A DNA stretch of 64,000 bases from Promethearchaeia archaeon (lineage in GTDB: Archaea; Asgardarchaeota; Lokiarchaeia; Sigyniarchaeales; SOKP01): NCBI GenBank assembly GCA_029856045.1, contig JAHQWG010000016.1, positions 256,001 through 320,000 of the forward strand, written 5' to 3'. A program made the translations under genes and the position numbers. Shown here piece by piece: positions 21,058 through 61,514 of the stretch (its first letter is position 1; each line of letters begins with the position of its first letter). The notes under the pieces were generated by a model. That model did not search any database and was not told the origin of the DNA. It worked only from the letters and a program-made list of their open reading frames with translations.

Positions 21058-21209
21058 ATTATTTTTTATAAAGCTAAAGGAATTTTAATAATTAAATTAA
21101 CTTAAAAATCACTTTCGATCAATACTGAAATTGTATATTTTAAATAAATTTTAATTTTAGTAAATATTTACAAATATATTATTTATTTCCTAAAAGTTAG
21201 TGATTTCTT

Positions 21210-21788
21210 ATCTCTGAACTTAAACCCTTATTAAAATCATTTTTATTTGTGATTGGAGGCAATATTTGCATTGAAGTCGCAAAAGAGTTATTGAATTCAA
21301 AAAATAAAGAAATAACCGATGATATAATAACGGAAAACATAAAGAAAAGAATTCAAGATATAAATATTGATTTTGAACCGGATGATGAGGAAAAATTAAA
21401 GTTAAATACGGTTCGAAAAACATTATATAAATTATATTCAGCAAAATTAGCTCAATTTAGAAGAGTGAGGGATAAGAATACAGGTTGGTTTATCTATTAT
21501 TGGTGGCATGATTTTGATAAGCTAAATGAGATTTTACTTGAAAAAGAGCAAAAAATAATAAGTAAATTAAGGGATCGATTAAGATATGAGTTAAATAATT
21601 ATTTTTTTATTTGTGAAAATTGTAGAAAACCTGAAACTCGGTTTATTTTTGATGACGCTGTAGATTTAAATTTCAAATGCCCTGTTGATGGTTGCGGAGG
21701 TAATTTAGTTGCAGATGAAAACAAAAAAATAATTGATTTCTTAAAGGAAAAAATAGTTACACTTCAAGAAACAATAAAAAATTTTTAA
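21210..21788 (+). CDS. tfe: Transcription factor E (TFIIE-alpha)
   Basis: LNTVRKTLYKLY, RVRDKNTGWFIYYW and a Zn ribbon (CENC...CPVDGCG). The track starts at GTG 21249, but the frame is open back to ATC 21210. Confidence 0.9.
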   Translation: MSELKPLLKSFLFVIGGNICIEVAKELLNSKNKEITDDIITENIKKRIQDINIDFEPDDEEKLKLNTVRKTLYKLYSAKLAQFRRVRDKNTGWFIYYWWHDFDKLNEILLEKEQKIISKLRDRLRYELNNYFFICENCRKPETRFIFDDAVDLNFKCPVDGCGGNLVADENKKIIDFLKEKIVTLQETIKNF

Positions 21789-21794
21789 CTCATA

Positions 21795-22343
21795 TTAATT
21801 CTTCTTCTTCCTTACTGTAATCATATCTCCTAATGTCGTTGGAGCCTTTTTTTGTTGAATATATCTTCTATAGTCATTCTCATCTTCTTTCTTTTTTTCA
21901 ATGAGCTTAATATTGTAAGTCTTTTCAATCTTTTTAGCTAATGAGATTGTTGGGATTCTTTTTCCGTTTTCAAGGCTTCGGATTAAAGATTCTTTCTCAT
22001 GTAATTTTAAAGCGAATTTTTCTTGAGTTAATTTATATCTTTCTCGTGCTTTTTTAATTTTAGTCGCGAAATTCCTGACAATTTGTAGATCTGACTCATC
22101 ATCTTTTTTTACACTTGGTTTCGCTATATAAGGGATAATTCCCGATTTACGCTTTACCGGTTTTTTATAAAAGATTTTTGATTGAGTTTTTGAAGAGGAA
22201 GTTATTGAAGTTTTTTGTCCTAAATTTGAACATGATTGACACACTGTGACTTTAACACCCTCAACAACAATATTAATGGGTTTCCCCCAAATTATGCCTC
22301 CACAAATTGAACATTCTGGATAATTTTGCTTTTTATGGGACAT
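21795..22343 (-). CDS. mbf1: Archaeal multiprotein bridging factor aMBF1
   Basis: N-terminal CxxC...CxxC ribbon, HTH (IKKARE...TQEKFA...LENGK.IP) and C-terminal TLGD. Confidence 0.9.
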   Translation of the reverse strand: MSHKKQNYPECSICGGIIWGKPINIVVEGVKVTVCQSCSNLGQKTSITSSSKTQSKIFYKKPVKRKSGIIPYIAKPSVKKDDESDLQIVRNFATKIKKARERYKLTQEKFALKLHEKESLIRSLENGKRIPTISLAKKIEKTYNIKLIEKKKEDENDYRRYIQQKKAPTTLGDMITVRKKKN

Positions 22344-22582
22344 TATATTTTCTTATATTATTAGAAATAAAAAAAATTTATGTATAAATTTACTAAAAAT
22401 ATTTTTATTGTAATAAAATTTCAAGATATTGAATTTCTTTTTATCCAATAATTACAATTAAATAAATTTTAAATAACATTATCGTCATTTTCTTATATCT
22501 GATAATAATATTTTATATAATCATCAAATTTAAATTTTCTAAATATATATTTAGTCATAATAAAAAAGAATGAAAAACATTA

Positions 22583-23797
22583 ATGCCCGCTATTAAAGAA
22601 AAAAATAAAAAAGAGGATCTCAAAGAAGGAGAGTATTTAGTCACTTATACACGACACCTTGAAAAACGACTAAGAAGTCTAGAGACTGAAAAACAATTAT
22701 TAGACGCAGAACGACTAAGATTAGAACAAGAACTTCATAGTTTAAGAAATGAAATAGATAGACTTAGAGAACCGCCTTTAGTTACCGCTACTGTTATTGA
22801 TGTGCTTGATGAAAAAAAGGGAAGAGCGGTAGTAAAAAGCTCAACAGGTCCAAGTTTTGTAGTTAATTCAAGTCGAAAAGTTAAAGGCCAAAAAATAGAA
22901 TCGGGTATGAGGGTCGCACTGAATCAACGTACGTTTGCAATTATGGAGATTTTACCTGCAAAGTTAGATCCATTTGTTAAAGGTATGGAAGTGATTGATT
23001 CCATTCCAGATATTTCATATGAAGATGTTGGAGGTTTAGAGGAACAAATACAAGAAATTCGAGAAACCGTCGAATTACCATTAAAGAAACCAGAATTATT
23101 TGAAAGAATTGGAATTGAACCTCCTAAGGGAGTATTATTATTTGGAGCTCCTGGTACTGGTAAAACATTGGTAGCAAAGGCTGTAGCGCATGAAACCCAA
23201 GCTAGATTTATCAGAATTATTGGTTCTGAGTTAGTTCAAAAGTTTATTGGAGAAGGTGCACGTTTAGTTAGAGAGATATTTCAACTGGCTAAAGAAAAAG
23301 CACCATCAATTATCTTTATTGATGAATTAGATGCGATTGGATCAAAACGATTACAAATTGCCACTTCGGGAGATAGAGAGGTTCAACGAACATTAATGCA
23401 ACTTCTCAGTGAGATGGATGGATTTGACCAAAGAGGGGATGTTAAAATTATTGGTGCTACTAATAGACCTGATATATTAGACCCTGCTCTATTAAGACCT
23501 GGTAGATTTGATCGATTAATAGATTTTCCAATTCCTGGATGGCAAGGAAGAGAGTGTATTTTTAAGATTCATATGAGAGGGATGAATATTGACAAATCTA
23601 ACTTTAATTTAAATCGTCTAGTAGATATGACAAAAGGAGCTACAGGAGCAGATATAAAGGCAATATGTTCTGAAGCGGGTATGTTTGCTATTAGGAGAGA
23701 AGCAGATAATATATCCTTTAAGGACTTTTTAGAAGCTACTAATAAAGTTTTAGGAAAAATGAAAGAAAAAAGTATGGAATCTAAGCTTTACTCTTAA
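22583..23797 (+). CDS. pan: Proteasome-activating nucleotidase PAN
   Basis: N-terminal coiled coil and OB fold, [29 protein letters not shown], and a C-terminal HbYX-type LYS. Confidence 0.96.
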
Positions 23798-24022
23798 TTT
23801 CAAAATTATTTCTTTTTTGTGATAAATTTTATTTTGTTATTCATTTCTATTTTATAAAGTCAAAAAAGAGAGAGAAGGAAAAAAAGAAAGAATAAGAAAT
23901 ATTATTGATAAAATGGAAATATTATAATATCTATTAAAAAACCTTTTTTTAAAAAAAAAGTAATGATATTAACCTATAAGATAATTCAATAAAAATATAC
24001 CAGAAAATATAGTAGTTAAATA

Positions 24023-24499
24023 TTGCAGAACGAAGAAATTGCGTTCCGAAAAGTTAGATCGTTATCAGATTTTATTTTCGGTAAAGAAATTACAAATCTT
24101 TTTTTTAATGATGAAAGTAATTGTAAAATGGAAAGATCCAAGAAAACAAAAAAAATTAAATTTATTTATCATAACAATAATCTTTTATTTATTTTAAGAC
24201 CAACTTCCGGGTATTTTGCTCTAACTTTATATTCCGCTCAAAAAATAATTGATCATATACCTCCTCCTAAATTGAGAGTGATTGTACAAAATGATGTTTC
24301 GGAATTTATAAAAAAGGGGAGGAATGTTTTTTGTAAACATATAATAGAGATTGATACTAACTTAAGACCAAATGATGAGGTTATTGCTGTTAATGAAAAT
24401 GATAAATTATTAGGAATTGGAAAATTGAAGCTACCAGTTGATTATCTCTTATCATTTGATAAAGGCGTTGGAATAAAAATTAGAAAAGGAAATAAATAA
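24023..24499 (+). CDS. PUA-domain protein similar to the archaeosine TGT C-terminus
   Basis: RSKKTKKIK, GRNVFCKH, LRPNDEV.AVNEND.LLGIG, GVGIKIRKG. Confidence 0.82.
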   Translation: MQNEEIAFRKVRSLSDFIFGKEITNLFFNDESNCKMERSKKTKKIKFIYHNNNLLFILRPTSGYFALTLYSAQKIIDHIPPPKLRVIVQNDVSEFIKKGRNVFCKHIIEIDTNLRPNDEVIAVNENDKLLGIGKLKLPVDYLLSFDKGVGIKIRKGNK

Positions 24500-24558
24500 A
24501 ATAATATCTCACATTAAATGTAGTAATTAATATCAGAAAGAATTTTTGGTGATTTTTT

Positions 24559-25047
24559 TTGGTTAAAGTTCCAAAAGATCTTCAGAAAAAAAAGAAAGAT
24601 GTTCCTAAAAGACCACAACCTAAAATTGCAAGAAAAGGAGAGCAATCTTTAGGGTCAAGGGCCATGAGAAGAAAAATGGAGCAACAAGGAATCTCTATGG
24701 ACCCAATAGATGTGAATAGAGTAATTTTTGAGTTAGCAGATAAAACTATGGTGATAGAGCAACCAGAAGTCTTCTTAATGAAACAGATGGGGCAAGAAAT
24801 ATATCAAGTTATGGGAACGGCAGAAGAAAAAACAATTGGTATTTCAAGCGTAGAATCAGTTCAAATTGCAGATTCAACTGAAAAGGAAGAAATTACTGAT
24901 GAAGAATTAAAGCCAGAAATTACAGAAAATGACATACAACTTGTCGCCGCACAAGCAAATGTTTCATTAAAAGAAGCTGAAGCAGCATTAAAAGATTCTA
25001 ATGGTAATATCGCTCAAGCAATTATTTTTTTGAAAAATAGACCTTAA
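24559..25047 (+). CDS. nac: Nascent polypeptide-associated complex protein
   Basis: RRKMEQQGI NAC domain and UBA-like DIQLVAAQANVS...GNIAQAI. Confidence 0.92.
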   Translation: MVKVPKDLQKKKKDVPKRPQPKIARKGEQSLGSRAMRRKMEQQGISMDPIDVNRVIFELADKTMVIEQPEVFLMKQMGQEIYQVMGTAEEKTIGISSVESVQIADSTEKEEITDEELKPEITENDIQLVAAQANVSLKEAEAALKDSNGNIAQAIIFLKNRP

Positions 25048-25118
25048 TTAATTACCAAAAATTAAAGTAAGATAATATATTTTTTATGATATAAATTTTC
25101 AATAAAACCTATTAATCG

Positions 25119-25499
25119 TTGAAAATGTCTAAAAAAGAAAAAAAGAAACCATCTGCGCTACCTGAGCTACCCGATTTAGATAAAAAATTTTTAGATATAA
25201 TTCAATTTACAGGTTGGATCTCGCTCCTAATTGGTGGATCTCTGCTTATTTTAAATCTATATCTCGCTTTTATTGATGAAAACCATATAATAACAATAGG
25301 GGCCATTGAAATAGGGATTTCTAGAACTTCAGTTGTTATAATGATCTTTAGCATTACAACAACGGTTTTTTGTTTTGGCATAGTTGATCTATTAAGAAGT
25401 GATCTCTCAAAAAAGAGACAATATTTTATGTCTTGGTTAATTGGAGAATTCCTATTAGCTATGTTTGGAGTCTTCTCTTTAGCAGTATATCAATGGTAA
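25119..25499 (+). CDS. Membrane protein (about 3 TM), function unknown
   Basis: Three hydrophobic segments, C-terminal YQW. Confidence 0.65.
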   Translation: MKMSKKEKKKPSALPELPDLDKKFLDIIQFTGWISLLIGGSLLILNLYLAFIDENHIITIGAIEIGISRTSVVIMIFSITTTVFCFGIVDLLRSDLSKKRQYFMSWLIGEFLLAMFGVFSLAVYQW

Positions 25500-25527
25500 C
25501 TCTGAGTTCTTAATCTAAATTTCTATT

Positions 25528-25884
25528 TTAGACATATTCTTCCCTATAAGGGGAAAATGCTTCAATTACTTCAGCTTCTTCTAATATAAATGCCCCATGT
25601 TTTTGATTAGAATTAAAAATGTAGGAATCTCCCTTTTTTGTTATAAATTGCTCCATTTTTCCCCCTTCTTCTATTTCAAACCTTATCTTTCCTCTTAAAA
25701 CAAAACCTGTTTGACTCGATATATGAGTATGAATTGGAATTGTAAAATTTTTCTCTAATAAAAATTGGCAAAGCATTATGTTTTCATTGAAAACTAAAGT
25801 CTTTCTATATATACCATCTAACATTTTAACAAATTTTGTCTCTTCTAACCCGATTTTAAACTTCTCACTCAAAATATAAAGCAC
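25528..25884 (-). CDS. Cupin-domain protein
   Basis: PIHTH..SQ.G.VL.G, GDSY...N..HG, FSP.REEY. Confidence 0.8.
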   Translation of the reverse strand: MLYILSEKFKIGLEETKFVKMLDGIYRKTLVFNENIMLCQFLLEKNFTIPIHTHISSQTGFVLRGKIRFEIEEGGKMEQFITKKGDSYIFNSNQKHGAFILEEAEVIEAFSPYREEYV

Positions 25885-26388
25885 CTAAACAATACATATT
25901 TTTTTACAATCAAATTAGAAAATTTATTTCTTTAAATATGACAGTTTTATTTTTACTATTATTATAATTTTCTGAATTTCAAAATCAATTCTCAAAAAGA
26001 ATTTAAAAATTAGAAAGTCAGCAAACTCTCTCAAAATAAACGACATAAAAAATAATATAATAAAAATTTAAAATATTTAGAAATCTCTCAATTTAATATA
26101 TCAAATCATAATATAATCAATCAATAAATATCTAAGCGCACATTAATAAATTTTCTTATGGTGGTAATAATTTTTTTAAAAAATAAAAAAAACATTAATT
26201 TTTTATATCTAAAAAATAAATTATTAATTCAATTGTATCAAATTATTCTAACAGAGGGAAACGGAGAGGTGCCGACAAAATACGACAAAAAGAATCACTT
26301 ATTTCGAACTAAACTCTTTTCTTTTAGGAAAAAAATATCCAACCCTTAAAAACAAGTATTAAAAATAATTTTAAAAAAATGAATAATT

Positions 26389-28551: not shown

Positions 28552-28646
28552 TTTTTTTTATCTTTTTTCTCCAATTCTATTTATATTCTTAATAAAAAAT
28601 TATAATCATACCTAATTTTTTTAAAATTCCAATAACTTAATTATAT

Positions 28647-28982
28647 ATGAGCTCATTTTTCAAAGATTTGACCATTTCAAACCTTCAAAAAGAAATTGAT
28701 AATTGGATTATCAATGAAGGTGGCGGATATTGGCCACCGTTTTCAATGTTAGCTGCTATTCTTGAAGAGTTGGGTGAGGTTTCGCGTGAAATTAATATTA
28801 TAGAAAAAATTAAACCCCCCAAACCTGATCAGGTTAAGGGAGATCTGGGCATGGAATTAGCAGATCTAGTTATTGCAATAATATGTACTGCTAATTATTA
28901 TAAAATTGATTTGGCTGAAAAATTAATCGAAAAAATAAAGCAAATAAAAATTAGAGACAAAAATAGATTTATTAAAATATAA
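28647..28982 (+). CDS. MazG-like NTP pyrophosphohydrolase
   Basis: GYW.P, EELGEVSRE, ELADL, RDKNRF. Confidence 0.85.
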   Translation: MSSFFKDLTISNLQKEIDNWIINEGGGYWPPFSMLAAILEELGEVSREINIIEKIKPPKPDQVKGDLGMELADLVIAIICTANYYKIDLAEKLIEKIKQIKIRDKNRFIKI

Positions 28983-28999
28983 GAAAATAATTGATTAAT

Positions 29000-30526: not shown

Positions 30527-32116
30527 GTGCTAAGAATGAATGAAGAAAAATATATCCTTGCTCATGATCATGGGACTTCTGGAAGTAAAGCTGCAATAGT
30601 ATCAACCCATGGAGAAGTTCTTGGTTTTGAATTCGAAGAAGTTCCATTATTTTTACCCAGTGCGGGAGCAGCCGAGCAGAACCCAGATGATTGGTGGAAT
30701 GCAATGAAAAAATCTATTACAAGGGTGTTGGATAAAAACTTGGTACCAATTGATGATATAGTTGGATTTTGTAATACTAGCCAATGGAGCGGAACTGTTC
30801 CAGTTGATAAAGATGGAAATCACTTAATGAACGCAATTATATGGATGGATACAAGAGGGGCGCCTTATGTAGAAAAATTCTATAAAGGAATTTTAAAAGT
30901 GGGCGGATTAAATATAATAAAAGCATTAAAATGGGTTAAAATAACTGGAGGTGCGCTAAGTACAACTGGGAAGGATTCCATTGCTCATATTTTATTTTTA
31001 AAAAATGAGCACCCTGATATTTATAATAAAACCTTTAAATTCCTAGAACCTCAAGATTACATTAATTTAAAACTTACAGGTAAATTCGCCGCTTCTACTT
31101 GTTCTATCCAAGTTCATTGGATTACAGATATAAGGGATATTAATAATGTTGTTTATCATGATGGACTCATAAAAAAATTAAAACTTAATAGAGATCAATA
31201 TCCAGATCTAAAATTAACAACTGATATTTTGGGAACTATTAATAAAGAGGTAGCAGATGAGTTTGGTTTAAATGAGGATGTCAAAGTTATTATGGGTGCC
31301 CCAGACATCTCTTCAGCAGCAGTAGGTTCAGGAGCAGTTAGGGATTATGAAGGACATATCTACCTTGGAACATCATCATGGTGTGTATGTCATGTACCAT
31401 TTAAAAAGACAGATCTATTTCATAATATGGCCAGCCTAGTCTCCGCAATTCCAGGAAGATATTTGTTTACAAACGAGCAAGAAATTGCTGGAGGATGCCT
31501 TTCATTTATGAGAGATAATATATTATATCATCAAGATGAGCTACTTCTTGAAGAGAAAGTTCCGGATGTTTATAAAATATTTGATAGAATTGTAGAGAAG
31601 GTGGAACCTGGAAGTAATAAACTAATTTTTACTCCATGGTTATATGGAGAGCGATCTCCTATTGATGATCATACAATTAGAGGGGGACTTCATAATCTCT
31701 CATTGGAAACGCATAGAGAGCATATGATAAGAGCAATATTTGAAGGAGTTGCTTATAATTCCAGATGGATATCTCAATATGTCGAGAAAAATATTAAACG
31801 CCCCTTAAATCCAATAAATTTAATTGGAGGTGGCGCAAATAGCAATATATGGTGTCAAATTTATGCTGACGTTCTTAATAGAACAATTAGACAGGTTGAG
31901 AATCCAATTGAAGCAAATGCACGAGGAGCTGCTTTTATTGGATCAGTTGGACTAGGATACATTACTTTTGATGAAATTCCAAAATATATTAAATATTCAA
32001 ATATCTATGAACCTAATCCCGCAAACACAAAGATCTACGATGATCTATTCCAAGAATTTATCACTATTTATAATAATAATAAAAAAATGTACAAGCGTTT
32101 AAACAAATTTCATTAA
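30527..32116 (+). CDS. FGGY-family carbohydrate kinase (xylulokinase-like)
   Basis: DHGTSGSK, AEQNPDDWW, IWMDTR, YLGTSSW, GERSP, GGGANS. Confidence 0.9.
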   Translation: MLRMNEEKYILAHDHGTSGSKAAIVSTHGEVLGFEFEEVPLFLPSAGAAEQNPDDWWNAMKKSITRVLDKNLVPIDDIVGFCNTSQWSGTVPVDKDGNHLMNAIIWMDTRGAPYVEKFYKGILKVGGLNIIKALKWVKITGGALSTTGKDSIAHILFLKNEHPDIYNKTFKFLEPQDYINLKLTGKFAASTCSIQVHWITDIRDINNVVYHDGLIKKLKLNRDQYPDLKLTTDILGTINKEVADEFGLNEDVKVIMGAPDISSAAVGSGAVRDYEGHIYLGTSSWCVCHVPFKKTDLFHNMASLVSAIPGRYLFTNEQEIAGGCLSFMRDNILYHQDELLLEEKVPDVYKIFDRIVEKVEPGSNKLIFTPWLYGERSPIDDHTIRGGLHNLSLETHREHMIRAIFEGVAYNSRWISQYVEKNIKRPLNPINLIGGGANSNIWCQIYADVLNRTIRQVENPIEANARGAAFIGSVGLGYITFDEIPKYIKYSNIYEPNPANTKIYDDLFQEFITIYNNNKKMYKRLNKFH

Positions 32117-41812: not shown

Positions 41813-42087
41813 AATAAGTTTATAAGATTAAAAAACATAAAAAAATTCTTTATAAAATAAAAAAAAAATCCATCTTTTTCTTAATTCATAGGAATTTAAT
41901 CCCTATTGAAAAAAAAATCTTAAAAAAATCTTAGTACAGCATGGTATTACTTCATTATTTCCTCACAAAATAAAGATTTAAAGAATATATGAATAAAATA
42001 TTTTTTTAAATACAATTATAAATACAATTTTTTATTAATTATTTAAAAATAAATGAAGTTATTTTCTAGTTTATAGGTGTATCTAAC

Positions 42088-42825
42088 ATAATTCATAGTT
42101 TCTATTTAATCCATCAACTTACGGGAATCTGCATGATTTATAGGAAATATGGAGCAATTGAATTAAATCAAGATCTAGTTTCGGGGTTTCTAACTGCTCT
42201 AAAAGATTTCGCAAGCGAGATAAGTAAAGGTAAGGGGCAACTCAAGATTGTAGACATGCGACTCTTCAACCTAATCCTTGTTTTTAAAGCAGGAGTCTTA
42301 GTGGTGGTTGCAGCTGATAAAAATGATTCTAGAGAAATCGCTCAAGCGAGACTTGAAGAAATAGTAGATGTTTTTATGGAAAAATATTCTGAATACATAG
42401 GTGAAGATAATTGGACAGGAGATATTCGTATATTTAAAGGATTTGAAACAATTATTGATAAAATTCTCGAAGTTGGAAAGGCAAGTGAAGTCCCAATTAG
42501 AATTCCCATTTTAAAAATATATAAGAAAGATTATGAAAAATCTCAAAAAAAGATAGCCAAAAAAGGGTTAATTCTTCAAGAAGTAGATTTTAGATCAACT
42601 ATTGAAGGAACTTACAAACCTGAATGGACCTCAAAGAGATTACCTAAACAAGTTGTGAGTCAAGGAATGCTTTCAGAACAAGAATATGAAATTTCCCATC
42701 TATGCGACGGATTTCATACTTTAGAAAAAATTGCAGAAGAAGCGGGTATTCCAGAAAACGATATAGGGTTAATTATTGATGAATTAGATGAGCTTGGATT
42801 GCTAGAATTTATAATAATTCAGTAA
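42088..42825 (+). CDS. Longin-domain protein with a C-terminal winged helix
   Basis: The frame extends upstream of ATG 42133 as (I)IHSFYLIHQLTGICMIYRKY, the first longin beta-hairpin. It also has DLVSGFLTAL..F and a C-terminal CDGFHTLEKIAEE...LDELGLL. Confidence 0.72.
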   Translation: MIHSFYLIHQLTGICMIYRKYGAIELNQDLVSGFLTALKDFASEISKGKGQLKIVDMRLFNLILVFKAGVLVVVAADKNDSREIAQARLEEIVDVFMEKYSEYIGEDNWTGDIRIFKGFETIIDKILEVGKASEVPIRIPILKIYKKDYEKSQKKIAKKGLILQEVDFRSTIEGTYKPEWTSKRLPKQVVSQGMLSEQEYEISHLCDGFHTLEKIAEEAGIPENDIGLIIDELDELGLLEFIIIQ

Positions 42826-52949: not shown

Positions 52950-53167
52950 AAAATTTCCCGTCTTTGTAATATTTGTTATTTTTCTTTTAATTTTTAATAA
53001 TTTTTAAGAGTAAAAAATTTTTCTCTTTTTAATTTACCCATTTCCCGTAAAACAGAAAAATTTTTATGTTATGGTATAATAATTTTATTATCTCTTTTTA
53101 ATTATCTTATTGGAATAGATTACATTGATTAGATCATATCATTTAATACCATATAAATTAAAGTAGG

Positions 53168-54274
53168 TTGGAAGAAATGGAACAGCATAAGCAATTATCC
53201 ATTGAATTAGATAAAAATCTTATAAATAAAGTATTTGAAAATGTAGAGATGCGCTATATTCTATTATATCTTTACATAGTTCGAAATGATATGTTAAAAA
53301 ATTTATCAGATGAATCTTGGCTCCATTCATTTAAAAGATTAATGAATTTGGATGAAATTCTCAAAAGCGATTTGGAATTATATTCAAATAAAGAACTGAC
53401 CGAAATATTAATAGATTTAGGAATAATTAAAAATTTAAGATCTTTAAAAGAACTGGAAAAGAAAGAAGATGATTTTTTAATTAAAACTTTAGAACCAATA
53501 AGAATCGAAGATAATAAGATAATTGTTCCAGAAAATACATTATTTCCTATTATCTCAAAAAAATTTCCATTTCTAACAAAACGAAATTTTCACTATGCCA
53601 TCTCAAGGTTAAAAGGTATAATGTGCGAAAATAGCGATGTAATTCATCCTTTTCTATTTGAAATTGGTAAGGAAAATTATTTATTAGCAGACGATCTATA
53701 TGAAATTTTAGATGATTTAGGAAATCCATATCAAACAATAAAGGTCGAAATCACTATTAGTGAATTTTATAACAGGTTTAAAGAATTATTAGAAAAAGTC
53801 TCGATTTTCTTAGAACTATATGATCCTTTATTAAATAAAAAATCAAATCTCAGAATTATCAAAGAGGCAATAGACAATAATAAAGTCATTCTTGAATTTA
53901 TGCAAGAAAAGGTAAAAAAATTGCCTGCTAAATTTGATCTGGAGGATGTAGTAGATAAAGAAAATGAAATTTTTAAAAAATGGCATTCTATACTTATAAA
54001 TTTACTTAAAAAACGGAATAGATTAAATGAAATTGATGAAGAATTAAGTAAAATTAAAAATTACTATTCTGGAAAGGGAAAAAAATATACCTATTTAGAA
54101 TTTATTACTAAAATATCATACAATGAAGATAATATCTTAAACCAAATTAAAGATAGACTGATAGAATTAAGAGAAGAATTAGTAAATATCAAAAAAGAAG
54201 TATCTAAATTTGAAAAAAATGAAATAAAACTGCTTAATTTAGATTATGAACGATTTAGAATTATAAATGAATAA
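53168..54274 (+). CDS. Hypothetical protein (possible wHTH plus coiled coil), gene 1 of the cluster
   Basis: 368 aa with a C-terminal coiled coil; TTG start after AGTAGG. Confidence 0.6.
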   Translation: MEEMEQHKQLSIELDKNLINKVFENVEMRYILLYLYIVRNDMLKNLSDESWLHSFKRLMNLDEILKSDLELYSNKELTEILIDLGIIKNLRSLKELEKKEDDFLIKTLEPIRIEDNKIIVPENTLFPIISKKFPFLTKRNFHYAISRLKGIMCENSDVIHPFLFEIGKENYLLADDLYEILDDLGNPYQTIKVEITISEFYNRFKELLEKVSIFLELYDPLLNKKSNLRIIKEAIDNNKVILEFMQEKVKKLPAKFDLEDVVDKENEIFKKWHSILINLLKKRNRLNEIDEELSKIKNYYSGKGKKYTYLEFITKISYNEDNILNQIKDRLIELREELVNIKKEVSKFEKNEIKLLNLDYERFRIINE

Positions 54275-54290
54275 ATAAGGAAGGTGCCCG

Positions 54291-55262
54291 ATTATTAACT
54301 GCCCTGTATGTAACGTTGAGATGGAACAACTCGTTCAAGAAATATTTCAATGTCCAAAGTGTAAAAAAATTATTAAAGGACAGATTAAAGAAATTAAAAA
54401 AAAGAAAGAAGTTGCTGTTGGAGAAATTCAAGAAGGAGATTATTTTCATAACAACGCTAGTTTAAATAAGAAATATGAAATTTGTGAAAAAGGAATTACA
54501 ATATCTAAATCTCCAAATAGGTGGGTGGCAGCATTACTCTGTCATAGCTCCTATTTAAGCAGCTCTAAATATATCAGACTTAGTTGGTGGAAAAAGGAAA
54601 TAAATACACATGCAGGCTTTTTCAAAATAACTGAATCTATAGTATTGGATAATTTAATCAAATCCTTAAAAAAAATAAATTCTTCATTTGATGAGTATTG
54701 GGGTAATTTTAAAGGATTTGAAAAAAAAAAAATAGAAACAGAAGAAAAAGCAATTCAAAATGAGCGTCTAAAAATTCTAAAGTATAGAATTCTCGAAAAT
54801 AAAATTTGCCCGAATTGTAGTAAAAAATTATCATTAAGTAAAAGAAAAACACATTATGAATGTGAACACTGTGGCGAGATCATCATCTTGGAATCTCATA
54901 ATGAACCTATTTTTAATATTGATCCTAAAGATCTCTCATTAGAATTCTCAACAAATTTTCCTATCAACTTTTACCTCCCCGTAGCGGGTATTACTATAGA
55001 ATGGTTAATGAGTTTATGGAAAGCTATAGTTGTTATATATTCAAAAGATAACCCCAATAAGAAATGGTTAAGATTCTATGCTTGGGAAAGGAATTTGCAA
55101 CAACTGCTAAAATACGGATATTATGAAGCCGGTGATGGAGGACAATTATCTTGGACTACAAAAAAAGGAACAGGCTCACCTAATATTTTTGATAAATCAG
55201 AAGTCCCTATTCTAATAGATGCTCTAAAAAAGCTTCAGAAAGAAATAGGTTGGGTTAAATAA
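54291..55262 (+). CDS. Zn-ribbon protein with two related PC4-like segments
   Basis: The upstream in-frame CPVC pairs with CPKC; a second ribbon is CPNC...CEHC. Repeated W.A.......K.(I/L)R..WW/YAW segments, each followed by L...LKK. Confidence 0.6.
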   Translation: MINCPVCNVEMEQLVQEIFQCPKCKKIIKGQIKEIKKKKEVAVGEIQEGDYFHNNASLNKKYEICEKGITISKSPNRWVAALLCHSSYLSSSKYIRLSWWKKEINTHAGFFKITESIVLDNLIKSLKKINSSFDEYWGNFKGFEKKKIETEEKAIQNERLKILKYRILENKICPNCSKKLSLSKRKTHYECEHCGEIIILESHNEPIFNIDPKDLSLEFSTNFPINFYLPVAGITIEWLMSLWKAIVVIYSKDNPNKKWLRFYAWERNLQQLLKYGYYEAGDGGQLSWTTKKGTGSPNIFDKSEVPILIDALKKLQKEIGWVK

Positions 55263-55302
55263 GATATAAATTTATACAAAAGATTATGATGTGATTGAAT
55301 AA

Positions 55303-56445
55303 ATGAGTGGAATCGATAATCTTGAATGGGAAAAATTGTTGACTGAATTCTCTAAAAATGTTGATAAATCTCTCAAGAAACTTGAAGAAAGAGATATTGA
55401 TAATATTCCTGGTGCTAAACAAGCCTTGGTTGAGAGATTACGAGTTATGAGAGATTATTTTCCACAAAATAACGGAGATCTCTTTATAAAATCAATTAAT
55501 GAGAAAATTCAAAATGCATTTTTCCCAAAAACCAAAGATCTAGCTGAAGCATTTGAGCTAATTTTAAAGTCACGCTCTCATGATCAAGATTTTATAATAA
55601 ATGAATTAATTAATGGTTTTATATCATCAAGAAGCAAAACAATTGCTTTAAATGTTCAAGGAACTGTTATTGATAGAATGGTTGAGGCATTTAGTAAAGG
55701 ACCGGATTTTCAAATTGTAGATCATCAATTCTATGCAATGTTTTCCGACCCCAATAAAGCACGCAAATATGTAAAAGAAAGTTTGCAAGACCTTGTGGAT
55801 TTATTTGGTTTAGAAGCGAAAGAATTAATTGTTGAAAAAGATAAAAGGAAAAGCGAGCGAAAAGTTTATACTTTTTACACGTTTCCCGAAAAAATATTAG
55901 AAATTTTAGAAGGTGAATATGTTGATACTGATGATGTACTCGGAGAAAAAAGGGTTTCAGAAAAATTCGATAAAACAGTTTTCATATCTTTGTTTTTAGC
56001 CAATATATCAGTTCACAGAGATGATTTAAAGAAAATAGGTGGAGTATATACTATAAACGGCATCTGTAGCATATTTAGTTTAATTCTTTTGATCTCGCTT
56101 ATGCCTAAATTGGAGGTAAATGAGACCAATCCAGTCTTAAGAGACCCAACTTATAACCCTGAGACAATGAGTATTATTCCAAAATCATGGATGATGAAGG
56201 AAATTCTGTTGGATTTATTGGAACCCCTAATAAATATTGTAGCATATAGATTGGGTGGCGGAGAATGGTTAAAATCGGTTGAAACCTCTGAGGTTAAAAA
56301 AAAGATACACAATCAAATACGGTTTCTTATCAAAGACGTAAATAAATGGGTATACGGACAGTTAACAAGAGTGGAAATTCCCATATTCATTGAAATCTCC
56401 AATATTTTCGCTGAGGTATTGATTGACTATTCTACAGGGGAGTAA
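55303..56445 (+). CDS. Hypothetical protein, gene 3 of the cluster
   Basis: 380-aa, mostly helical ORF. Confidence 0.6.
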   Translation: MSGIDNLEWEKLLTEFSKNVDKSLKKLEERDIDNIPGAKQALVERLRVMRDYFPQNNGDLFIKSINEKIQNAFFPKTKDLAEAFELILKSRSHDQDFIINELINGFISSRSKTIALNVQGTVIDRMVEAFSKGPDFQIVDHQFYAMFSDPNKARKYVKESLQDLVDLFGLEAKELIVEKDKRKSERKVYTFYTFPEKILEILEGEYVDTDDVLGEKRVSEKFDKTVFISLFLANISVHRDDLKKIGGVYTINGICSIFSLILLISLMPKLEVNETNPVLRDPTYNPETMSIIPKSWMMKEILLDLLEPLINIVAYRLGGGEWLKSVETSEVKKKIHNQIRFLIKDVNKWVYGQLTRVEIPIFIEISNIFAEVLIDYSTGE

Positions 56446-56471
56446 AATTAAATACTTAGGGGGAAATTAAT

Positions 56472-57740
56472 ATGGTTAGAGAAAGATGGACAGACATTTT
56501 AGCTAGATACTTAACATATTTAAGTCATCTGGTTCCAATTCTCAAAGAAACAAAGAAAACTGTCCAAAATATGAGTTTGGAAGTGATGATGGACGTAAAG
56601 ATTTTTGATAAGATTAAAATGGACGAAGAAAAACGATTAGTGAAGAAAGTGAGGGCTTTATCCGAATTCTCGGCATATTATAGAGGTGAAGTATTTGAAA
56701 ATATAAAAAATTTTATATACAAATATGCTGAGGATTTAGAACCTATAGATATTAAAGATTATCTAATTGAATTTTTTGATGAATGCATAAGTGCTTTAGA
56801 AATATTAATGAATGTTACAAACCCAGATCAAAAAAAATTAAATTCCACATATTTATATCTTCTTTACAAATATTTAGAAGATCTTTTATTACCTATAGGT
56901 AAAAATTTTGAAGAAATTTACATGAAGTTGAATAAAACATCAAAAAATTGGCATGAATGTCAAAGGTATATGATGATTCCTCATACATATTATAGGGAAA
57001 CTGTGGATAACCCCGATTTCTTCGAAATTCCCGGTATTTCTCCAAAATTATACCAAATAATTAATAATATAACCTCTTTATACAACTTGGATCCTAATTA
57101 TTATCCGTGTCCTGAAGATTCTAACATAGAAATTCCAGTAGTCTTGATTGAAGATGTTTTTGAAGCATTTATTGATAATATTGCTCATGAAGAGCAAGAA
57201 GCAGTTGAAAAAATTTGTGAACGTTTAGGATTAAGAGTTCTAGATGGGATTTTTCTTGCTCCCAAGTATGATTTTATAGATGTTCTAATTAAACTTGATT
57301 TCCTTAGAGAGAATAAACAATCTGATGGCAAGATTAGATTAATACCTCAATTCAGTAATGAAACTTTAATTTTAAGTTATCTAGCGTTCGTTTCTTTCCG
57401 TCGAGGTTTTTTATCTAAAGAATTAATTAATTGGATTTCTATGACATTTGCGTTCATTATTTTTTCAACGATTTTAAAATCTCAATTAAGTGATCATAAT
57501 ATTTTCTATCCTATTTTTACTGGTTTGAAAACTCAAGAAAAAGTAATACCTTATATGATGAAACTTCTATGCTTTAATAATTATTTGAAATTAGATAGGA
57601 TGAAAATACGAGATTCTGTCCAGTACAGAAAAGAAATTTTTAATTTTGCAGGATCTAGCATAGATTGCATTAAGCAATTAATTTTAGATTTAAGTGAATA
57701 TTTAAAAGAAATAAAAAAAAAAAAAAAAGAAGGGGTGTAA
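56472..57740 (+). CDS. Hypothetical protein, gene 4 of the cluster
   Basis: 422-aa ORF with AGGGGGA upstream. Confidence 0.6.
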   Translation: MVRERWTDILARYLTYLSHLVPILKETKKTVQNMSLEVMMDVKIFDKIKMDEEKRLVKKVRALSEFSAYYRGEVFENIKNFIYKYAEDLEPIDIKDYLIEFFDECISALEILMNVTNPDQKKLNSTYLYLLYKYLEDLLLPIGKNFEEIYMKLNKTSKNWHECQRYMMIPHTYYRETVDNPDFFEIPGISPKLYQIINNITSLYNLDPNYYPCPEDSNIEIPVVLIEDVFEAFIDNIAHEEQEAVEKICERLGLRVLDGIFLAPKYDFIDVLIKLDFLRENKQSDGKIRLIPQFSNETLILSYLAFVSFRRGFLSKELINWISMTFAFIIFSTILKSQLSDHNIFYPIFTGLKTQEKVIPYMMKLLCFNNYLKLDRMKIRDSVQYRKEIFNFAGSSIDCIKQLILDLSEYLKEIKKKKKEGV

Positions 57741-57746
57741 GAAAAA

Positions 57747-58823
57747 ATTACATATTCAGATGATGAAATTAAAGAAAGGCTTGATAAGTATGGAACGGTT
57801 TATTTACCAAATGAAATTATAGAGAATGTTGATGATATTTTAGGAAATGAGATTCTAAAGGAAAGGCTTGAAGATTTTTTCAGTTCCTTAAAAAAATATA
57901 GTGAAGTTGTTGAAAAATTAAAAAAGACTAAATTAGTCCCAAATTTAACTGTCCTCCTATATGGACCACCTGGAACTGGAAAAACTTCTTTAGCTCGAGC
58001 ATTTGCAAAGGAATTTGATATCCCATTGTGTGTAGTAGAGTCTGACAGATTAGTTTCTGCATTATTAGGCGATACCGTTAAAAATATTAGAAAAGTTGTG
58101 GAATTATCAGCTCAGATTGCGGAAGAAAATGGAGCTTTTATATTGTTTTTTGATGAAATTGATGCAATTGCATCCGAAAGATCGAATATTCACGAAGTAG
58201 GCGAAATTAAAAGAGCTGTAATATCTTTCTTACAAATAATTGATAAAATAAACTACTTTGGAACACCATTAGCAATTTTAGGTGCTACTAACCATCAAGA
58301 CCAATTAGATTCTGCAATTTGGAGGAGATTCACATTTCATTTGAAATTTGATTTTCCTACATTTCATCTCAGGAAGAAAATAATTGAGGCTTTTATTAAT
58401 AAAATTAGTAACGCAAAAATTGGAGTAGATGATGTAATTCTTGTTAGTTTAAACAAAGAATATGCATTATTAAAATCTAAGGAAGAAAAATTAAAGCCTA
58501 TAGTAAGAAATGAAAAATATTCACAAGATTTGGATGAATTGTGGAATGATAAAAAAATTATCGAGAATAGAGGAATTTTATTTTTAACGCGTGGATACAC
58601 AGGTGCAGATTTAGAGCGTGGAGTGAGAGTTGCTCTGTTTAAAGCATTAAAAAATGACATTTTAACCTATGAAAATTTTACCCATTCCTTAGAATTAGTA
58701 GGAGGTACTAAAATCCATGTTGAACAACAATATTTTTTGAGTGTTTCTGAAAGGAAATCTTCCAGGGATAAAAAAATATCAAGAATAAACAACAACAATC
58801 TGGAAGGTCCTCGTGAAATTTAA
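57747..58823 (+). CDS. AAA+ ATPase; the real N-terminus lies upstream of the track start
   Basis: In-frame Walker A YGPPGTGKT near 57960 precedes the track's TTG at 58026. Also has FFDEID and ATNHQDQLDSAIWRRF. Confidence 0.88.
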   Translation: MTYSDDEIKERLDKYGTVYLPNEIIENVDDILGNEILKERLEDFFSSLKKYSEVVEKLKKTKLVPNLTVLLYGPPGTGKTSLARAFAKEFDIPLCVVESDRLVSALLGDTVKNIRKVVELSAQIAEENGAFILFFDEIDAIASERSNIHEVGEIKRAVISFLQIIDKINYFGTPLAILGATNHQDQLDSAIWRRFTFHLKFDFPTFHLRKKIIEAFINKISNAKIGVDDVILVSLNKEYALLKSKEEKLKPIVRNEKYSQDLDELWNDKKIIENRGILFLTRGYTGADLERGVRVALFKALKNDILTYENFTHSLELVGGTKIHVEQQYFLSVSERKSSRDKKISRINNNNLEGPREI

Positions 58824-58884
58824 TAATTAATTTTTTTAAAAATCTCCTATTGATTATATAAAAATACAAGTAAAAAATCGAAAG

Positions 58885-59952
58885 ATGGAATCAGAGAACA
58901 TAATCTTTTCTGCAGAAAGAATAAAAGGATTAACTAATCCTATTGATAAAATTCGAGGAAAATTAAATTTAATTAATAAATTATATCTCAATTATAAAGA
59001 AACTCTAAAAAATTTACTTAAAAAACCCAATCTAATAGAGAATGATAGAATAAAATTCTTTAATGATTTAGATAACACATTAGAAGAAATATATTCAAAA
59101 TTATCCAAAAACTCTGAACTTAACTTAGAAAATTGGTTGTCAATTAAAGATTTACTTTTATCTGAATATATTCTTTCAATAAAAAACATTTTAACAGAAA
59201 AAAAAATTTCTCAAGATTCTCTTAAAAAAGTTGGTATTTCATTAATTAAAAACAAGAAAGTATCATCTTTTTTAGAAAAAACAAGTTTTATTTTTTCACT
59301 CGATGTTGATTTTTGGGAATCAATAGTTAATTCATTAAAAAATAACCCTGATTTTCTAAAAACCCTAAATAAAATAAAAAAATTTTGTCAAAATGAGAGG
59401 GAACGAATATTAAATATTGAACTAAATAAAATTCCTAAAAACATCGACTATAAAATTATCAATGAGTTTAAAAAAGAATTCAGAAAAAACAAAATTTCTT
59501 TTAAAGAATTCATGATAACTTCAGAATCCAGATTTCCTAAAACTAAATTTGCCACCCAAAAGATTACTTTAGACACAAAAAAGAAAAAGAATGAACTTGA
59601 TATATTAAAAGAAAAACAAGAGACACGATTCAAATCTTATGATAAATTATTTACTCTTTCCGAAGATGAATTTCAAAGATTAAAACGTAAAAAAAAAAGA
59701 AAAAAATTAGATTCTTTATCTAAATTAGAAAAAAAAGAATACCCTCCTGATGATAAAAAAAAGGAGAAGGACAAGAAAGAAGAATCAACCCAAACCACAA
59801 AACAAGATATATTTAGTAGAGATATAATAGAAAATAATGAAGCTGATATCGATCCTTTAGAAGTTATTAGAAAAAGAAAGCAAAAAAAGGAAGAAGAATT
59901 TGAAAAACACTTAAATAAAATTCAAAAAAAAAATAAAAGAGGTTCAAACTAA
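58885..59952 (+). CDS. Hypothetical helical protein with a charged low-complexity tail
   Basis: 355 aa with a K/E-rich C-terminus. Confidence 0.55.
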   Translation: MESENIIFSAERIKGLTNPIDKIRGKLNLINKLYLNYKETLKNLLKKPNLIENDRIKFFNDLDNTLEEIYSKLSKNSELNLENWLSIKDLLLSEYILSIKNILTEKKISQDSLKKVGISLIKNKKVSSFLEKTSFIFSLDVDFWESIVNSLKNNPDFLKTLNKIKKFCQNERERILNIELNKIPKNIDYKIINEFKKEFRKNKISFKEFMITSESRFPKTKFATQKITLDTKKKKNELDILKEKQETRFKSYDKLFTLSEDEFQRLKRKKKRKKLDSLSKLEKKEYPPDDKKKEKDKKEESTQTTKQDIFSRDIIENNEADIDPLEVIRKRKQKKEEEFEKHLNKIQKKNKRGSN

Positions 59953-61514
59953 TTAATTCTGGTTCATTTGTAATAAAAATAAAAGATTTTTCAGTGGAAA
60001 TTAAAAATAAATTTAATATTATTCAAGGCAAATTTCTTTCTCAGGATTTAAATCAACTTCAATTGGGCAATTATATCCACCTTCTTGATGATGTTCCAAA
60101 AATAAGCTTAGAAAAGTTACTGATTTTATATAAAAATAATTCAAAAGGACAGAAAAATCTAATTGACAATATTAATTTTATTGAATTTATAGCAAAATAT
60201 ACTCAAATAACTCAAAAAGATATTAAATTTTTAGATAAATATATCTCTTTTTTAGAAAGTTGTATTTCACTATTAAGATTAAACCAGCTCAATCTTGAAA
60301 AAAAAAAATTAAAAACCGAACTAAAAATTGCCCAAGAAAGAAATAAATCAGCAGAAATTTCTACTAAAATAACTCTATTAAATAAATTAAACGAATCAAT
60401 TAAAGAATACAACACTAGATTAAAACTTTTTGAAGAGGATTTTTTACCCATCAAAAATCAAAAAAAAATGCTTGAAGACAAACTTGGGAATTTAAAAAAA
60501 ACACAAATTGAATTTAGAAAAGAACAAAAGGATATTTTTAATAAGATTAATATTCTTACTCGAGAAGAAGAGAGCCAAAACAATGATCAAAATGAAAAAA
60601 TTGAGACCCTAAGGAAAAATGCTAAAATTCTAAGAGATAAAATTGATGATATCAAGCAAAAAATTGAAAATTCCCAATATAAATTAAATCAGAATTTGCC
60701 GAAATTTAAAGAATTTGATAAAATTTATCATAACCTAAAAGAAAATCTTGAAATTGATAAGAAAAAAATGAGAAATCTTCGAATAGAATTAGAAGAAGTT
60801 ATTGATTTAAATAAATTGGATGAATTAACAGAATCTGGTTTAAAAGAACTATCTTATATAAGACCGATAAGCTTAATCAAATCAAATATTGATAACATCA
60901 CTAATGAAATAATAAAAATTGAAAGTTTCAATCAAAAGTATTTTAAAAATAAAAATAATCTCTTAATAAAAGATTTAAAGATGTTTAAATCCAATTTAGA
61001 CAACTTTTTTTCGAATCAGTTGGAAGAATTCGATAGTAATGAGCTTGAAAGCAAAATAAAATCTTTAAAGAAATTAGGTATTTGGCTATATAAATTCCAA
61101 AAATTACTAAATGAATTTTTGGAAACGATTAATTTAAAAATCTCTATTGATTTTTTTTTAAATTTGACACCAAATTTTGCTAAAAATAGTCAGATTATTA
61201 TAAATTTCAAACGTTTTAAAGAAGAAGCTATCATTTATGATAATTTAACTACTCCTGAGAAGGTATTTTTTATAATATGTTTTTACTTAACCATTGAAAG
61301 TCTTAAAAATAAAAGAAACATCATTTTCACAAATCTTATAATACCTGAGGATTATAACAAAAAAGGTTCTATTTTTAGAACTTTAACAAAAATTATGCCT
61401 ATTTTTAATGAAAGTCCAGATTTAAAGGAGAAATCATTAACTTTTCTAATTTCTGGATTCAAACTAACAAAAGATATCAAAAATGTTCAAATATATAATA
61501 TAAATAATACTTAA
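59952..61514 (+). CDS. SMC/Rad50-like coiled-coil protein with degenerate ATPase head motifs
   Basis: N-terminal IKIKDF..VEIKNKFNIIQG, a long coiled coil, and C-terminal NLTTPEK.FF..C..L.I, NIIFTNL and SLTFLISG. The track starts at GTG 59994. Confidence 0.6.
   Translation: MNSGSFVIKIKDFSVEIKNKFNIIQGKFLSQDLNQLQLGNYIHLLDDVPKISLEKLLILYKNNSKGQKNLIDNINFIEFIAKYTQITQKDIKFLDKYISFLESCISLLRLNQLNLEKKKLKTELKIAQERNKSAEISTKITLLNKLNESIKEYNTRLKLFEEDFLPIKNQKKMLEDKLGNLKKTQIEFRKEQKDIFNKINILTREEESQNNDQNEKIETLRKNAKILRDKIDDIKQKIENSQYKLNQNLPKFKEFDKIYHNLKENLEIDKKKMRNLRIELEEVIDLNKLDELTESGLKELSYIRPISLIKSNIDNITNEIIKIESFNQKYFKNKNNLLIKDLKMFKSNLDNFFSNQLEEFDSNELESKIKSLKKLGIWLYKFQKLLNEFLETINLKISIDFFLNLTPNFAKNSQIIINFKRFKEEAIIYDNLTTPEKVFFIICFYLTIESLKNKRNIIFTNLIIPEDYNKKGSIFRTLTKIMPIFNESPDLKEKSLTFLISGFKLTKDIKNVQIYNINNT

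What the first reader, a model, noticed from the sequence alone, without database searches (positions are those of the whole stretch)
21199..59954. Recurrent non-canonical ATT/ATA/ATC start codons behind Shine-Dalgarno motifs
Seen in five genes: coding sequence continues upstream of the first ATG/GTG/TTG to an ATH codon a few bases after an SD-like motif. AAA ATPase: ATT 57747 after GAAGGGGTG, otherwise Walker A is lost. Zn-ribbon gene: ATT 54291 after GGAAGGTG, restoring CPVC. Longin gene: ATA 42088 after AGGTG, restoring the first strands. SMC-like gene: ATT 59952 after GAGGT, overlapping the upstream stop as TAATT. TFE: ATC 21210 after AGTGA, the weakest case. Many core genes (rpoH, rpoB, nac, pelota) also appear to start with TTG. 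Inference: start-codon stringency is relaxed in this lineage, so standard gene callers will truncate proteins.
Basis: partly seen in the sequence, partly recalled or inferred. Interest (0 to 1): 0.72.

Follow-up and report, generated by a model that had tools for sequence, protein, structure and literature searches.

The report
Genes starting at ATT/ATA/ATC codons
In this uncultured Loki-type Asgard archaeon and its relatives, a few percent of ordinary genes most likely begin translation at ATT, ATA or ATC placed seven bases behind a ribosome-binding site, so public gene calls cut these proteins short.

Summary
Confirmed. All five genes have an in-frame stop 2-6 codons upstream of the proposed ATH and no ATG/GTG/TTG before essential conserved sequence. 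In orthologues from up to 30 related Promethearchaeota genomes, the same aligned codon is ATG, TTG or GTG in some genera and ATT/ATA/ATC in others. This excludes assembly error and downstream starts.

One correction: the Zn-ribbon gene more likely starts at the second ATT (54294).

The habit is genome-wide and rule-like. Among in-frame codons upstream of the first canonical start and exactly 7 nt after GGTG, 34 of 45 are ATH (background 15%; out of frame 1 of 51). Of 14 homology-defined ATH starts, 13 have a strong Shine-Dalgarno, against 17% of ATG genes.

My estimate is at least 45-50 genes, possibly 100-150 (2-5%). The signal appears in low-GC families f1 and f2 and not in a 54%-GC relative.

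aIF1, the start-codon fidelity factor, itself starts at ATA here and at ATT/ATC in the rest of the family. Its loop 1 is unchanged.

Public databases hold the truncated proteins. The TTG starts of rpoH, rpoB, NAC and pelota are also supported.

No protein-level evidence exists. This scan had already reached the same reading on other pieces of this genome. I found no published description.

The parts
21199..21203 (+). SD-like AGTGA of TFE; its TGA (21201-21203) is the in-frame stop that closes the frame upstream
   Evidence: duplex dG -5.6; 7 nt from the G of GTG to ATC
21210..21788 (+). TFE (TFIIE-alpha family) gene starting at ATC 21210
   Evidence: Pfam PF02002, 7.9e-14. The aligned codon is ATA/ATC in the genus, ATT in 7 other genera, TTG in 3 and ATG in 1. 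It is ATT in family f2 genus g14, with the first canonical codon 48-84 codons later.
42075..42079 (+). SD AGGTG of the longin-like gene
   Evidence: dG -8.9; 8 nt spacer
42088..42825 (+). Longin/roadblock-like gene starting at ATA 42088
   Evidence: The aligned codon is ATG in 3 genera, TTG in 5, and ATC/ATA in 3. The Pfam Longin hit is weak. The truncated 230-aa form is on public record.
54279..54286 (+). SD GGAAGGTG of the Zn-ribbon gene
   Evidence: dG about -10
54294..55262 (+). Zn-ribbon (CPVC...CPKC) gene, most likely starting at the second ATT (54294; 54291 not excluded)
   Evidence: ATT AAC TGC CCT aligns with ATG/TTG AAA TGT CCT in 10 other genera. The truncated 313-aa form is on public record.
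57729..57737 (+). SD GAAGGGGTG of the AAA ATPase gene, inside the end of the upstream gene
   Evidence: dG -8.9; 9 nt spacer
57747..58823 (+). AAA+ ATPase gene starting at ATT 57747
   Evidence: Pfam AAA at residues 69-202. The first canonical codon is 93 codons in. The aligned codon is ATT in 4 congeners plus 2 genera, ATA in 1, TTG in 2 and ATG in 1 of family f1; G016 has ATG one codon later and G008 has ATG further upstream. It is ATG in 3 f2 genomes; G026 has ATG further upstream.
59939..59943 (+). SD GAGGT of the SMC-like gene
   Evidence: dG -7.2
59952..61514 (+). Coiled-coil 'SMC-like' gene (no Pfam family) starting at ATT 59952, overlapping the upstream TAA
   Evidence: ATT is conserved in the genus. 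GTG 59994 is GTA in G001. Four other genera have no canonical codon for 26-92 codons.
14651..14908 (+). rpoH starting at TTG
   Evidence: Pfam PF01191. Orthologues have TTG/GTG/ATG at the aligned codon.
14967..18347 (+). rpoB starting at TTG
24559..25047 (+). NAC starting at TTG
   Evidence: orthologues have ATG/GTG at the aligned codon
46789..47856 (+). pelota starting at TTG
   Evidence: orthologues have TTG/GTG/ATG

Best explanation
These genes are translated from near-cognate AUU, AUA or AUC start codons. A strong Shine-Dalgarno element, pairing with the 16S 3' end ...GGAUCACCUCCU, holds the 30S subunit so that the codon about 7 nt after the G of GGUG sits in the P site. There Met-tRNAi (anticodon CAU) is accepted despite the third-position mismatch.

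Shown here:
- no canonical start is available in any of the five genes;
- the ATH aligns with the ATG/TTG/GTG of orthologues;
- the SD is strong and its spacing fixed;
- the ATH excess is frame-specific and genome-wide;
- the pattern is present in two low-GC families of the order.

Inferred, not shown:
- that the first residue is Met;
- that these starts are weaker than AUG;
- that their use reflects a low or self-limited level of aIF1, whose own gene starts at AUA/AUU in this family;
- that A+T mutation pressure (29% GC) feeds ATG-to-ATH changes, which are tolerated only where the SD is strong.
For: Sequence: in-frame stops lie 2-6 codons upstream, with no ATG/GTG/TTG before conserved or essential residues.

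Orthologues: the aligned codon switches among ATG, TTG, GTG and ATH for all five genes, and ATH is conserved in 3-4 independent same-genus assemblies.

Unbiased window survey: 5 of about 56 complete genes.

Broader homology sample: about 13 credible cases among 219 informative genes, of which 8 lie outside the window. Examples are an AOR-like gene (ATA), an OFOR gamma-like gene (ATT; ATA in G008) and an SDR (ATT, equal to ATG in G014).

SD anchor: 16S tail; G-rich peak with the G of GGTG at -8 before confident ATG starts.

Spacing test: 34 of 45 in-frame codons 7 nt after GGTG are ATH, against a 14.7% background (p = 9e-18), and 1 of 51 out of frame. The total excess is about 45-50 genes.

SD strength: 13 of 14 homology-defined ATH starts have SD duplex dG of -6 or lower, against 17% of first-ATG ORFs.

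aIF1: starts at ATA in G000 and at ATT/ATC/ATA in all 17 family-f1 genomes holding the gene.

Initiator tRNA: ordinary, with CAU anticodon, A1:U72 and a GGG:CCC anticodon stem.

Literature: S. solfataricus aIF1 discriminates against AUU in vitro (PMC4705826).
Against: The SD signal is weak genome-wide: only 13-17% of ATG genes have a strong SD. SD-only counts therefore miss any ATH starts that lack an SD, and the true number is uncertain (45 to about 150).

aIF1 loop 1 (RKWGR/K) is identical in ATH-using and non-using relatives, so no factor change explains relaxed stringency.

G024 has an ATA-started aIF1 but only 2 credible non-canonical starts among 150 genes by homology. The aIF1 start codon therefore does not simply predict genome-wide use.

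tRNA detection was incomplete: 25-33 tRNAs were found. A special initiator cannot be excluded.

The exact start of the SMC-like gene outside the genus is not resolved.
Confidence: 0.85

Rival explanations
1. The genes really start at the first downstream ATG/GTG/TTG, as public gene calls have it, and the upstream in-frame sequence is untranslated leader.
For: Public gene calls use these starts. The SMC-like and TFE genes have a GTG only 13-14 codons downstream.
Against: The upstream residues are conserved as protein across genera at 55-65% identity. The truncated AAA ATPase would lack Walker A, and the truncated Zn-ribbon protein would lack CPVC. The downstream canonical codons are not conserved: GTA/GTC in congeners, and none for 48-220 codons in several relatives.
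Confidence: 0.02
2. The ATH codons are sequencing or assembly errors for ATG.
For: None found. The genome is a 55-contig metagenome assembly, and one site lies next to an A18 run.
Against: The same ATH occurs in 3-4 independently assembled congeners and in other genera. The frame-specific excess involves dozens of genes.
Confidence: 0.01
3. For operon-internal genes (Zn-ribbon, AAA, SMC-like), translation restarts by termination-reinitiation coupling. The ribosome that ends the upstream gene resumes nearby with little codon selectivity, so ATH is incidental.
For: These three genes lie in one conserved, tightly packed cluster. Upstream stops lie 0-20 nt before the ATH, and one overlaps it as TAATT.
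Against: TFE, the longin-like gene and aIF1 stand behind intergenic regions and follow the same rule. The codon at 7 nt is ATH in 34 of 45 cases, not random. Orthologues carry ATG/TTG at that very codon. Coupling may assist but does not replace codon recognition.
Confidence: 0.07
4. A dedicated initiator-like tRNA (for example with an AUH-reading anticodon or a modified C34) reads these codons, rather than mismatch pairing by the ordinary Met-tRNAi.
For: Only 25-33 tRNA genes could be detected, because many carry introns. The tRNA set is therefore not fully known.
Against: The one initiator found is standard (CAU, A1:U72, GGG:CCC stem). Free switching between ATG, TTG, GTG and ATH at one codon among close relatives fits a single tolerant initiator.
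Confidence: 0.04

Closest known systems
Bacterial near-cognate AUU starts behind an SD (E. coli infC and pcnB); infC autoregulation by IF3 (Butler et al. 1987, as cited in PMC4705826)
   Same: An AUU start at normal SD spacing is read by the ordinary initiator. The fidelity factor's own gene uses the weak codon: aIF1 here (ATA/ATT), IF3 there.
   Different: In E. coli this is a handful of genes. Here it is about 2-5% of genes, includes AUA and AUC, and follows a sharp GGUG-7 nt rule. The factor is aIF1 (SUI1 fold), unrelated to IF3. Feedback has not been shown.
Eukaryotic eIF1 autoregulation through a poor-context AUG, and near-cognate initiation set by eIF1 level (PMC4705826)
   Same: The homologous factor (eIF1/aIF1) polices codon-anticodon pairing, and its own mRNA carries a weak initiation site.
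   Different: Eukaryotes scan and use Kozak context. Here the site is fixed by an SD, and the weak feature is the codon itself.
Alternative initiation codons of NCBI genetic code table 11, and AUA/AUU starts of mitochondria (own knowledge)
   Same: ATT, ATC and ATA are formally allowed starts. A+T-rich mitochondrial genomes use them often.
   Different: There is no sign of a code change here. The frequency in a free-living archaeon is far above what annotation pipelines assume.
Near-cognate alternative initiation sites seen by ribosome profiling in Haloferax volcanii (PMC7261190)
   Same: This is also an archaeon; about 30% of putative alternative initiation sites were near-cognate codons.
   Different: Those sites were set aside as possible false positives, and they are extra sites. 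Here ATH is the only possible start of conserved, full-length core genes.

Membership tests
SD-dependent near-cognate (AUH) initiation, infC/pcnB type | No ATG/GTG/TTG between the upstream in-frame stop and conserved, required N-terminal sequence | tested here: met
SD-dependent near-cognate (AUH) initiation, infC/pcnB type | SD complementary to the 16S 3' end at the same spacing as for canonical starts | tested here: met
   (peak at 7-8 nt for both ATH and canonical starts)
SD-dependent near-cognate (AUH) initiation, infC/pcnB type | The orthologous codon is a canonical start in relatives | tested here: met
SD-dependent near-cognate (AUH) initiation, infC/pcnB type | The protein N-terminus maps to the AUH codon and carries Met | not testable with these tools
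Fidelity-factor autoregulation through its own weak start (infC / eIF1 type) | The factor gene starts at a weak site that is conserved | tested here: met
   aIF1 starts at ATT/ATC/ATA in all 17 f1 genomes with the gene and in f2 genus g17. The first canonical codon lies 54-137 codons downstream in many.
Fidelity-factor autoregulation through its own weak start (infC / eIF1 type) | Expression from the weak start rises when the factor is scarce | not testable with these tools
   This needs genetics or in vitro translation.
Genetic-code change (AUA = Met, mitochondrial type) | Internal AUA codons align with Met in orthologues | not tested
   Not examined systematically. The alignments seen show ATA/ATT at Ile/Val/Leu positions.

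The most novel reading that the evidence does not exclude
AUH start codons form a stringency-tuned regulon in Loki-type Asgard archaea. aIF1, itself AUH-initiated, would set a homeostatic level of start-codon discrimination. The output of some 50-150 SD-anchored AUH genes would then rise and fall together with aIF1 availability; these include the general transcription factor TFE and operon-internal subunits. [quoted passage not shown]
Probability: 0.25. Interest if true: 0.85.

Novelty: new variant of a known kind. Interest (0 to 1): 0.7.

Why it matters
Annotation: public protein sets for these Asgard genomes hold truncated versions of several percent of genes. These include eukaryote-like signature proteins, so domains, signal peptides and catalytic motifs are lost (shown for two genes). 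A simple rule (GGTG, 7 nt, in-frame ATH, no upstream canonical codon) would recover many of them.

Biology: archaea are thought to start at AUG/GUG/UUG, and eukaryotes are strict for AUG. Frequent AUH initiation, together with an AUH-started aIF1, in the lineage nearest to eukaryotes makes the evolution of start-codon stringency and of eIF1-type feedback testable. Cultured relatives exist and one complete relative genome shows the same pattern.

Tried and rejected
- Tally of triplets after any 4-mer SD motif across the genome: swamped by in-gene occurrences and 3-periodicity, so uninformative.
- Distribution of the distance from the upstream stop to the first canonical start, against a 3'-flank control: the control was unsuitable.
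- Duplex-energy comparison of ATH against other codons in the pre-canonical zone: only about 2-fold, and confounded by coding content. Replaced by the exact-spacing, frame-controlled test.
- aragorn and Rfam tRNA searches: incomplete, because of intron-rich tRNAs.
- aIF1 loop-1 comparison: no lineage-specific change.
- Many automatically flagged 'upstream homology' cases were discarded on inspection. Reasons were spurious ORFs inside an rRNA region of C27, antisense ORFs, overlap with the conserved end of an upstream gene, low-complexity matches, and one selenocysteine TGA.
- Readthrough fusion of the AAA gene with the upstream same-frame gene: rejected, because relatives have different or double stops there.
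- Literature searches for Asgard/Loki non-canonical starts returned nothing relevant.
Full report
WHAT THE WINDOW IS. The window is G000:C27:256001-320000 of a 3.34-Mb, 55-contig genome with 29.4% GC. Close relatives in public records are titled Promethearchaeota or Promethearchaeia MAGs, that is Loki-type Asgard archaea. The genome search supplied 30 relatives: family f1 (18 genomes, 13 genera, including the window's genus g1) and families f2, f3 and f4 of the same order.

THE FIVE SITES. The frame is closed by an in-frame stop 2-6 codons upstream of the proposed ATH. No ATG/GTG/TTG lies between that stop and sequence the protein needs.
- AAA ATPase: the first canonical codon (TTG 58026) is 93 codons in, beyond Walker A. 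Pfam places the AAA domain at residues 69-202 of the ATT-started protein.
- Zn-ribbon gene: the first ATG removes the first CxxC.

ORTHOLOGUES. I located orthologues in the relatives by six-frame search and read their codons around the aligned N-terminus.
- AAA ATPase, codon aligned to ATT 57747: ATT in three congeners, TTG in the fourth, TTG in G011, ATG in G018, ATT in G006 and G005, ATA in G007. G016 has ATG one codon later, and G008 has ATG further upstream. In family f2 it is ATG in G030, G024 and G028; G026 has ATG further upstream.
- Zn-ribbon gene: ATG or TTG in ten other genera aligns with the second ATT (54294; ATT AAC TGC CCT against ATG AAA TGT CCT). This codon lies 7 nt after GGTG, so I move the start by one codon.
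- Longin-like gene, codon aligned to ATA 42088: ATG in three genera, TTG in five, ATC or ATA in three.
The downstream GTG 21249 is GTA or GTC in two congeners. In f2 genus g14, including the single-contig genome G026, TFE reads AAGGTGA-CCATCG-ATT with no canonical codon for 84 codons.
- SMC-like gene: ATT 59952 is conserved in the genus and GTG 59994 is GTA in G001. N-termini of other genera are too diverged to align codon for codon, but four have no canonical codon for 26-92 codons.

These results exclude assembly error (independent assemblies agree) and downstream starts.

HOW COMMON IN THE WINDOW. I compared all 58 window ORFs of at least 70 codons with syntenic DNA from seven other genera. 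Only the same five have alignments running 9 or more residues upstream of the first canonical codon. That is 5 of about 56 complete genes.

HOW COMMON IN THE GENOME. I used two independent routes.

(a) Homology. I compared 2,807 non-overlapping ORFs of at least 100 codons with about 770 kb from seven f1 genera.
- 219 ORFs were informative and 32 were flagged.
- After reading each one, eight credible cases remained outside the window. They include an AOR-like gene (ATA, 64 codons before the first canonical codon; the G014 orthologue also lacks a canonical start), an OFOR gamma-like gene (ATT; ATA in G008), an SDR whose ATT equals ATG in G014, and a second longin-like gene whose ATA equals ATG in two genera.
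- The rest were artefacts, listed under Tried and rejected.
- The resulting rate is about 5%, with a wide interval.

(b) SD anchoring. The 16S rRNA ends ...GGATCACCTCCT. Confident ATG starts show a G-rich peak with GGTG ending at -8.
- I took in-frame codons at least three codons upstream of the first canonical start and tabulated them by distance from an upstream GGTG. At exactly 7 nt, 34 of 45 are ATH (16 ATA, 16 ATT, 2 ATC). The background share at other distances is 14.7% (Fisher p = 9e-18). At 8 nt, 14 of 44 are ATH.
- The abundant control codons AAA, AAT, TTA, TTT, TAT and GAA show no peak.
- Out-of-frame triplets at the same distance are ATH in 1 of 51 cases, so the signal belongs to the long ORF.
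- Canonical first starts peak at the same 7-8 nt.
- Adding other SD variants, the excess is about 45-50 genes. This is a lower bound, because it needs an exact motif and at least three lost codons.

Together the two routes give at least 45-50 and perhaps 100-150 genes (2-5%).

MECHANISTIC CLUE. I chose 14 ATH starts by homology rather than by SD, although in one case SD spacing decided between two nearby ATH codons. Of these, 13 have an SD duplex energy of -6 kcal/mol or lower. The figure is 17% for first-ATG ORFs and 8% for interior codons (binomial about 2e-9). The GGTG-to-ATH spacer is 7 nt in most. ATH initiation therefore looks conditional on a strong, correctly spaced SD, whereas most ATG genes here have a weak SD or none.

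FIDELITY FACTOR.
- The only SUI1 gene in G000 (C27:190844-191059) has its Zn knuckle and SUI1 domain preceded by AAGGTAGTG-9 nt-ATA. In congener G003 the GTG inside that SD is absent and a stop lies upstream, leaving ATA as the only start.
- In every other f1 genome holding the gene the start is ATT (ATC in G009) behind a conserved AAGGTTGTGA. The next canonical codon is often 54-137 codons away.
- f2 genus g17 uses ATA. f2 genera g14, g20 and g21 and family f4 use TTG or ATG.
- Loop 1 (RKWGR/K; R31, Y32 and K34 in P. abyssi, PMC6237735) is the same in all of them, so the protein itself is not visibly altered.
- S. solfataricus aIF1 rejects AUU in vitro (PMC4705826). A weak start on the aIF1 gene recalls infC and eIF1 feedback, but nothing here shows feedback.
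- G024 has an ATA-started aIF1 yet few ATH genes by homology (2 of 150).

PHYLOGENETIC SPREAD.
- By reverse homology, credible non-canonical starts are 7 of 165 in G014 and 3 of about 91 in G008 (both f1), 2 of 150 in G024 and 0 of 66 in G026 (both f2), and 0 of 47 in G027 (f4, 54% GC).
- By the GGTG+7 test on 400-kb samples, ATH is 4 of 7 in G024, 2 of 2 in G026 and 1 of 26 in G027.
- The habit is thus present in both low-GC families and was not seen in the GC-rich one. Samples are small.
- CTG may also serve: the G028 Zn-ribbon gene has CTG where G024 has TTG.

CONSEQUENCES. The exact truncated proteins are on record in NCBI, JGI/IMG, ENA and Logan, including for the window's own contig. These are the 313-aa form from ATG 54321 and the 230-aa form from ATG 42133. 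Some are named only 'hypothetical protein'.

TTG CLAIM. rpoH, rpoB, NAC and pelota (Pfam) start at TTG codons that align with TTG/GTG/ATG in other genera. Genome-wide, the first canonical codon is ATG in 69% of ORFs, TTG in 22% and GTG in 9.5% (these starts are not validated).

PRIOR KNOWLEDGE. Full-text searches for non-canonical or ATT starts in Asgard, Loki or Prometheoarchaeum found nothing on this. H. volcanii ribosome profiling noted near-cognate alternative sites but set them aside. Earlier notes of this scan on other pieces of the same genome reached the same reading, with 40-60 genes genome-wide. Notes on other genomes report the AUU-started aIF1. My counts came from different tests and agree with theirs.

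LIMITS. There is no protein or footprint evidence and no read-level check. The tRNA inventory is incomplete. The upper estimate rests on a modest homology sample.

VERDICT. It is a new, rule-like variant of near-cognate initiation.

Noticed in passing
G000 contig C27:190726-191115 (outside the window): The only aIF1/SUI1 gene starts at ATA (C27:190766) behind AAGGTAGTG. In all other family-f1 genomes holding the gene it starts at ATT/ATC behind a conserved AAGGTTGTGA. It starts at TTG/ATG in f2 genera g14, g20 and g21 and in family f4.
   Followed up: yes
window 53168-62045: A conserved, tightly packed eight-gene cluster holds three of the five ATH-start genes. Its order is: unknown, Zn-ribbon, unknown, unknown, AAA ATPase, unknown, coiled-coil 'SMC-like', small gene. 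It is syntenic across f1 and partly f2. Most members have no Pfam family. The AAA ATPase matches the PADLOC IetA models at 3e-60.
   Followed up: partly
G000 contig C32, minus strand, TGA at about 31013-31015 (plus coordinates): In an HdrA-like gene, an in-frame TGA is flanked by conserved protein on both sides (...DRVVVSA-TGA-TPITHQPVFH...), and the TGA is kept in G014. This is a likely selenocysteine codon. A tRNA-Sec lies at C1:2264-2356.
   Followed up: partly
G028:C19 (locus L172), Zn-ribbon orthologue: CTG stands where the congener G024 has TTG, and the next canonical codon is about 30 codons downstream. This suggests that CTG is also used as a start in the order.
   Followed up: no
G000 contig C27, about 249-252 kb, just upstream of the window: Several G+C-rich 'ORFs' are conserved at the nucleotide level across genera and look like spurious frames inside a large rRNA gene. 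The 16S 3' end is far away at C27:177724, so the rRNA genes appear unlinked.
   Followed up: no
G022:C364 (locus L179), TFE orthologue: A run of about 13 A just after the expected GGTGA-N6-ATT start puts the ATT out of frame. This is probably a homopolymer length error in that assembly.
   Followed up: no
whole genome G000: Only 25-33 tRNA genes are detectable with Rfam or aragorn, many with introns. The initiator tRNA (C27:220557-220656, minus strand) carries a 21-nt intron 3' of the anticodon.
   Followed up: partly
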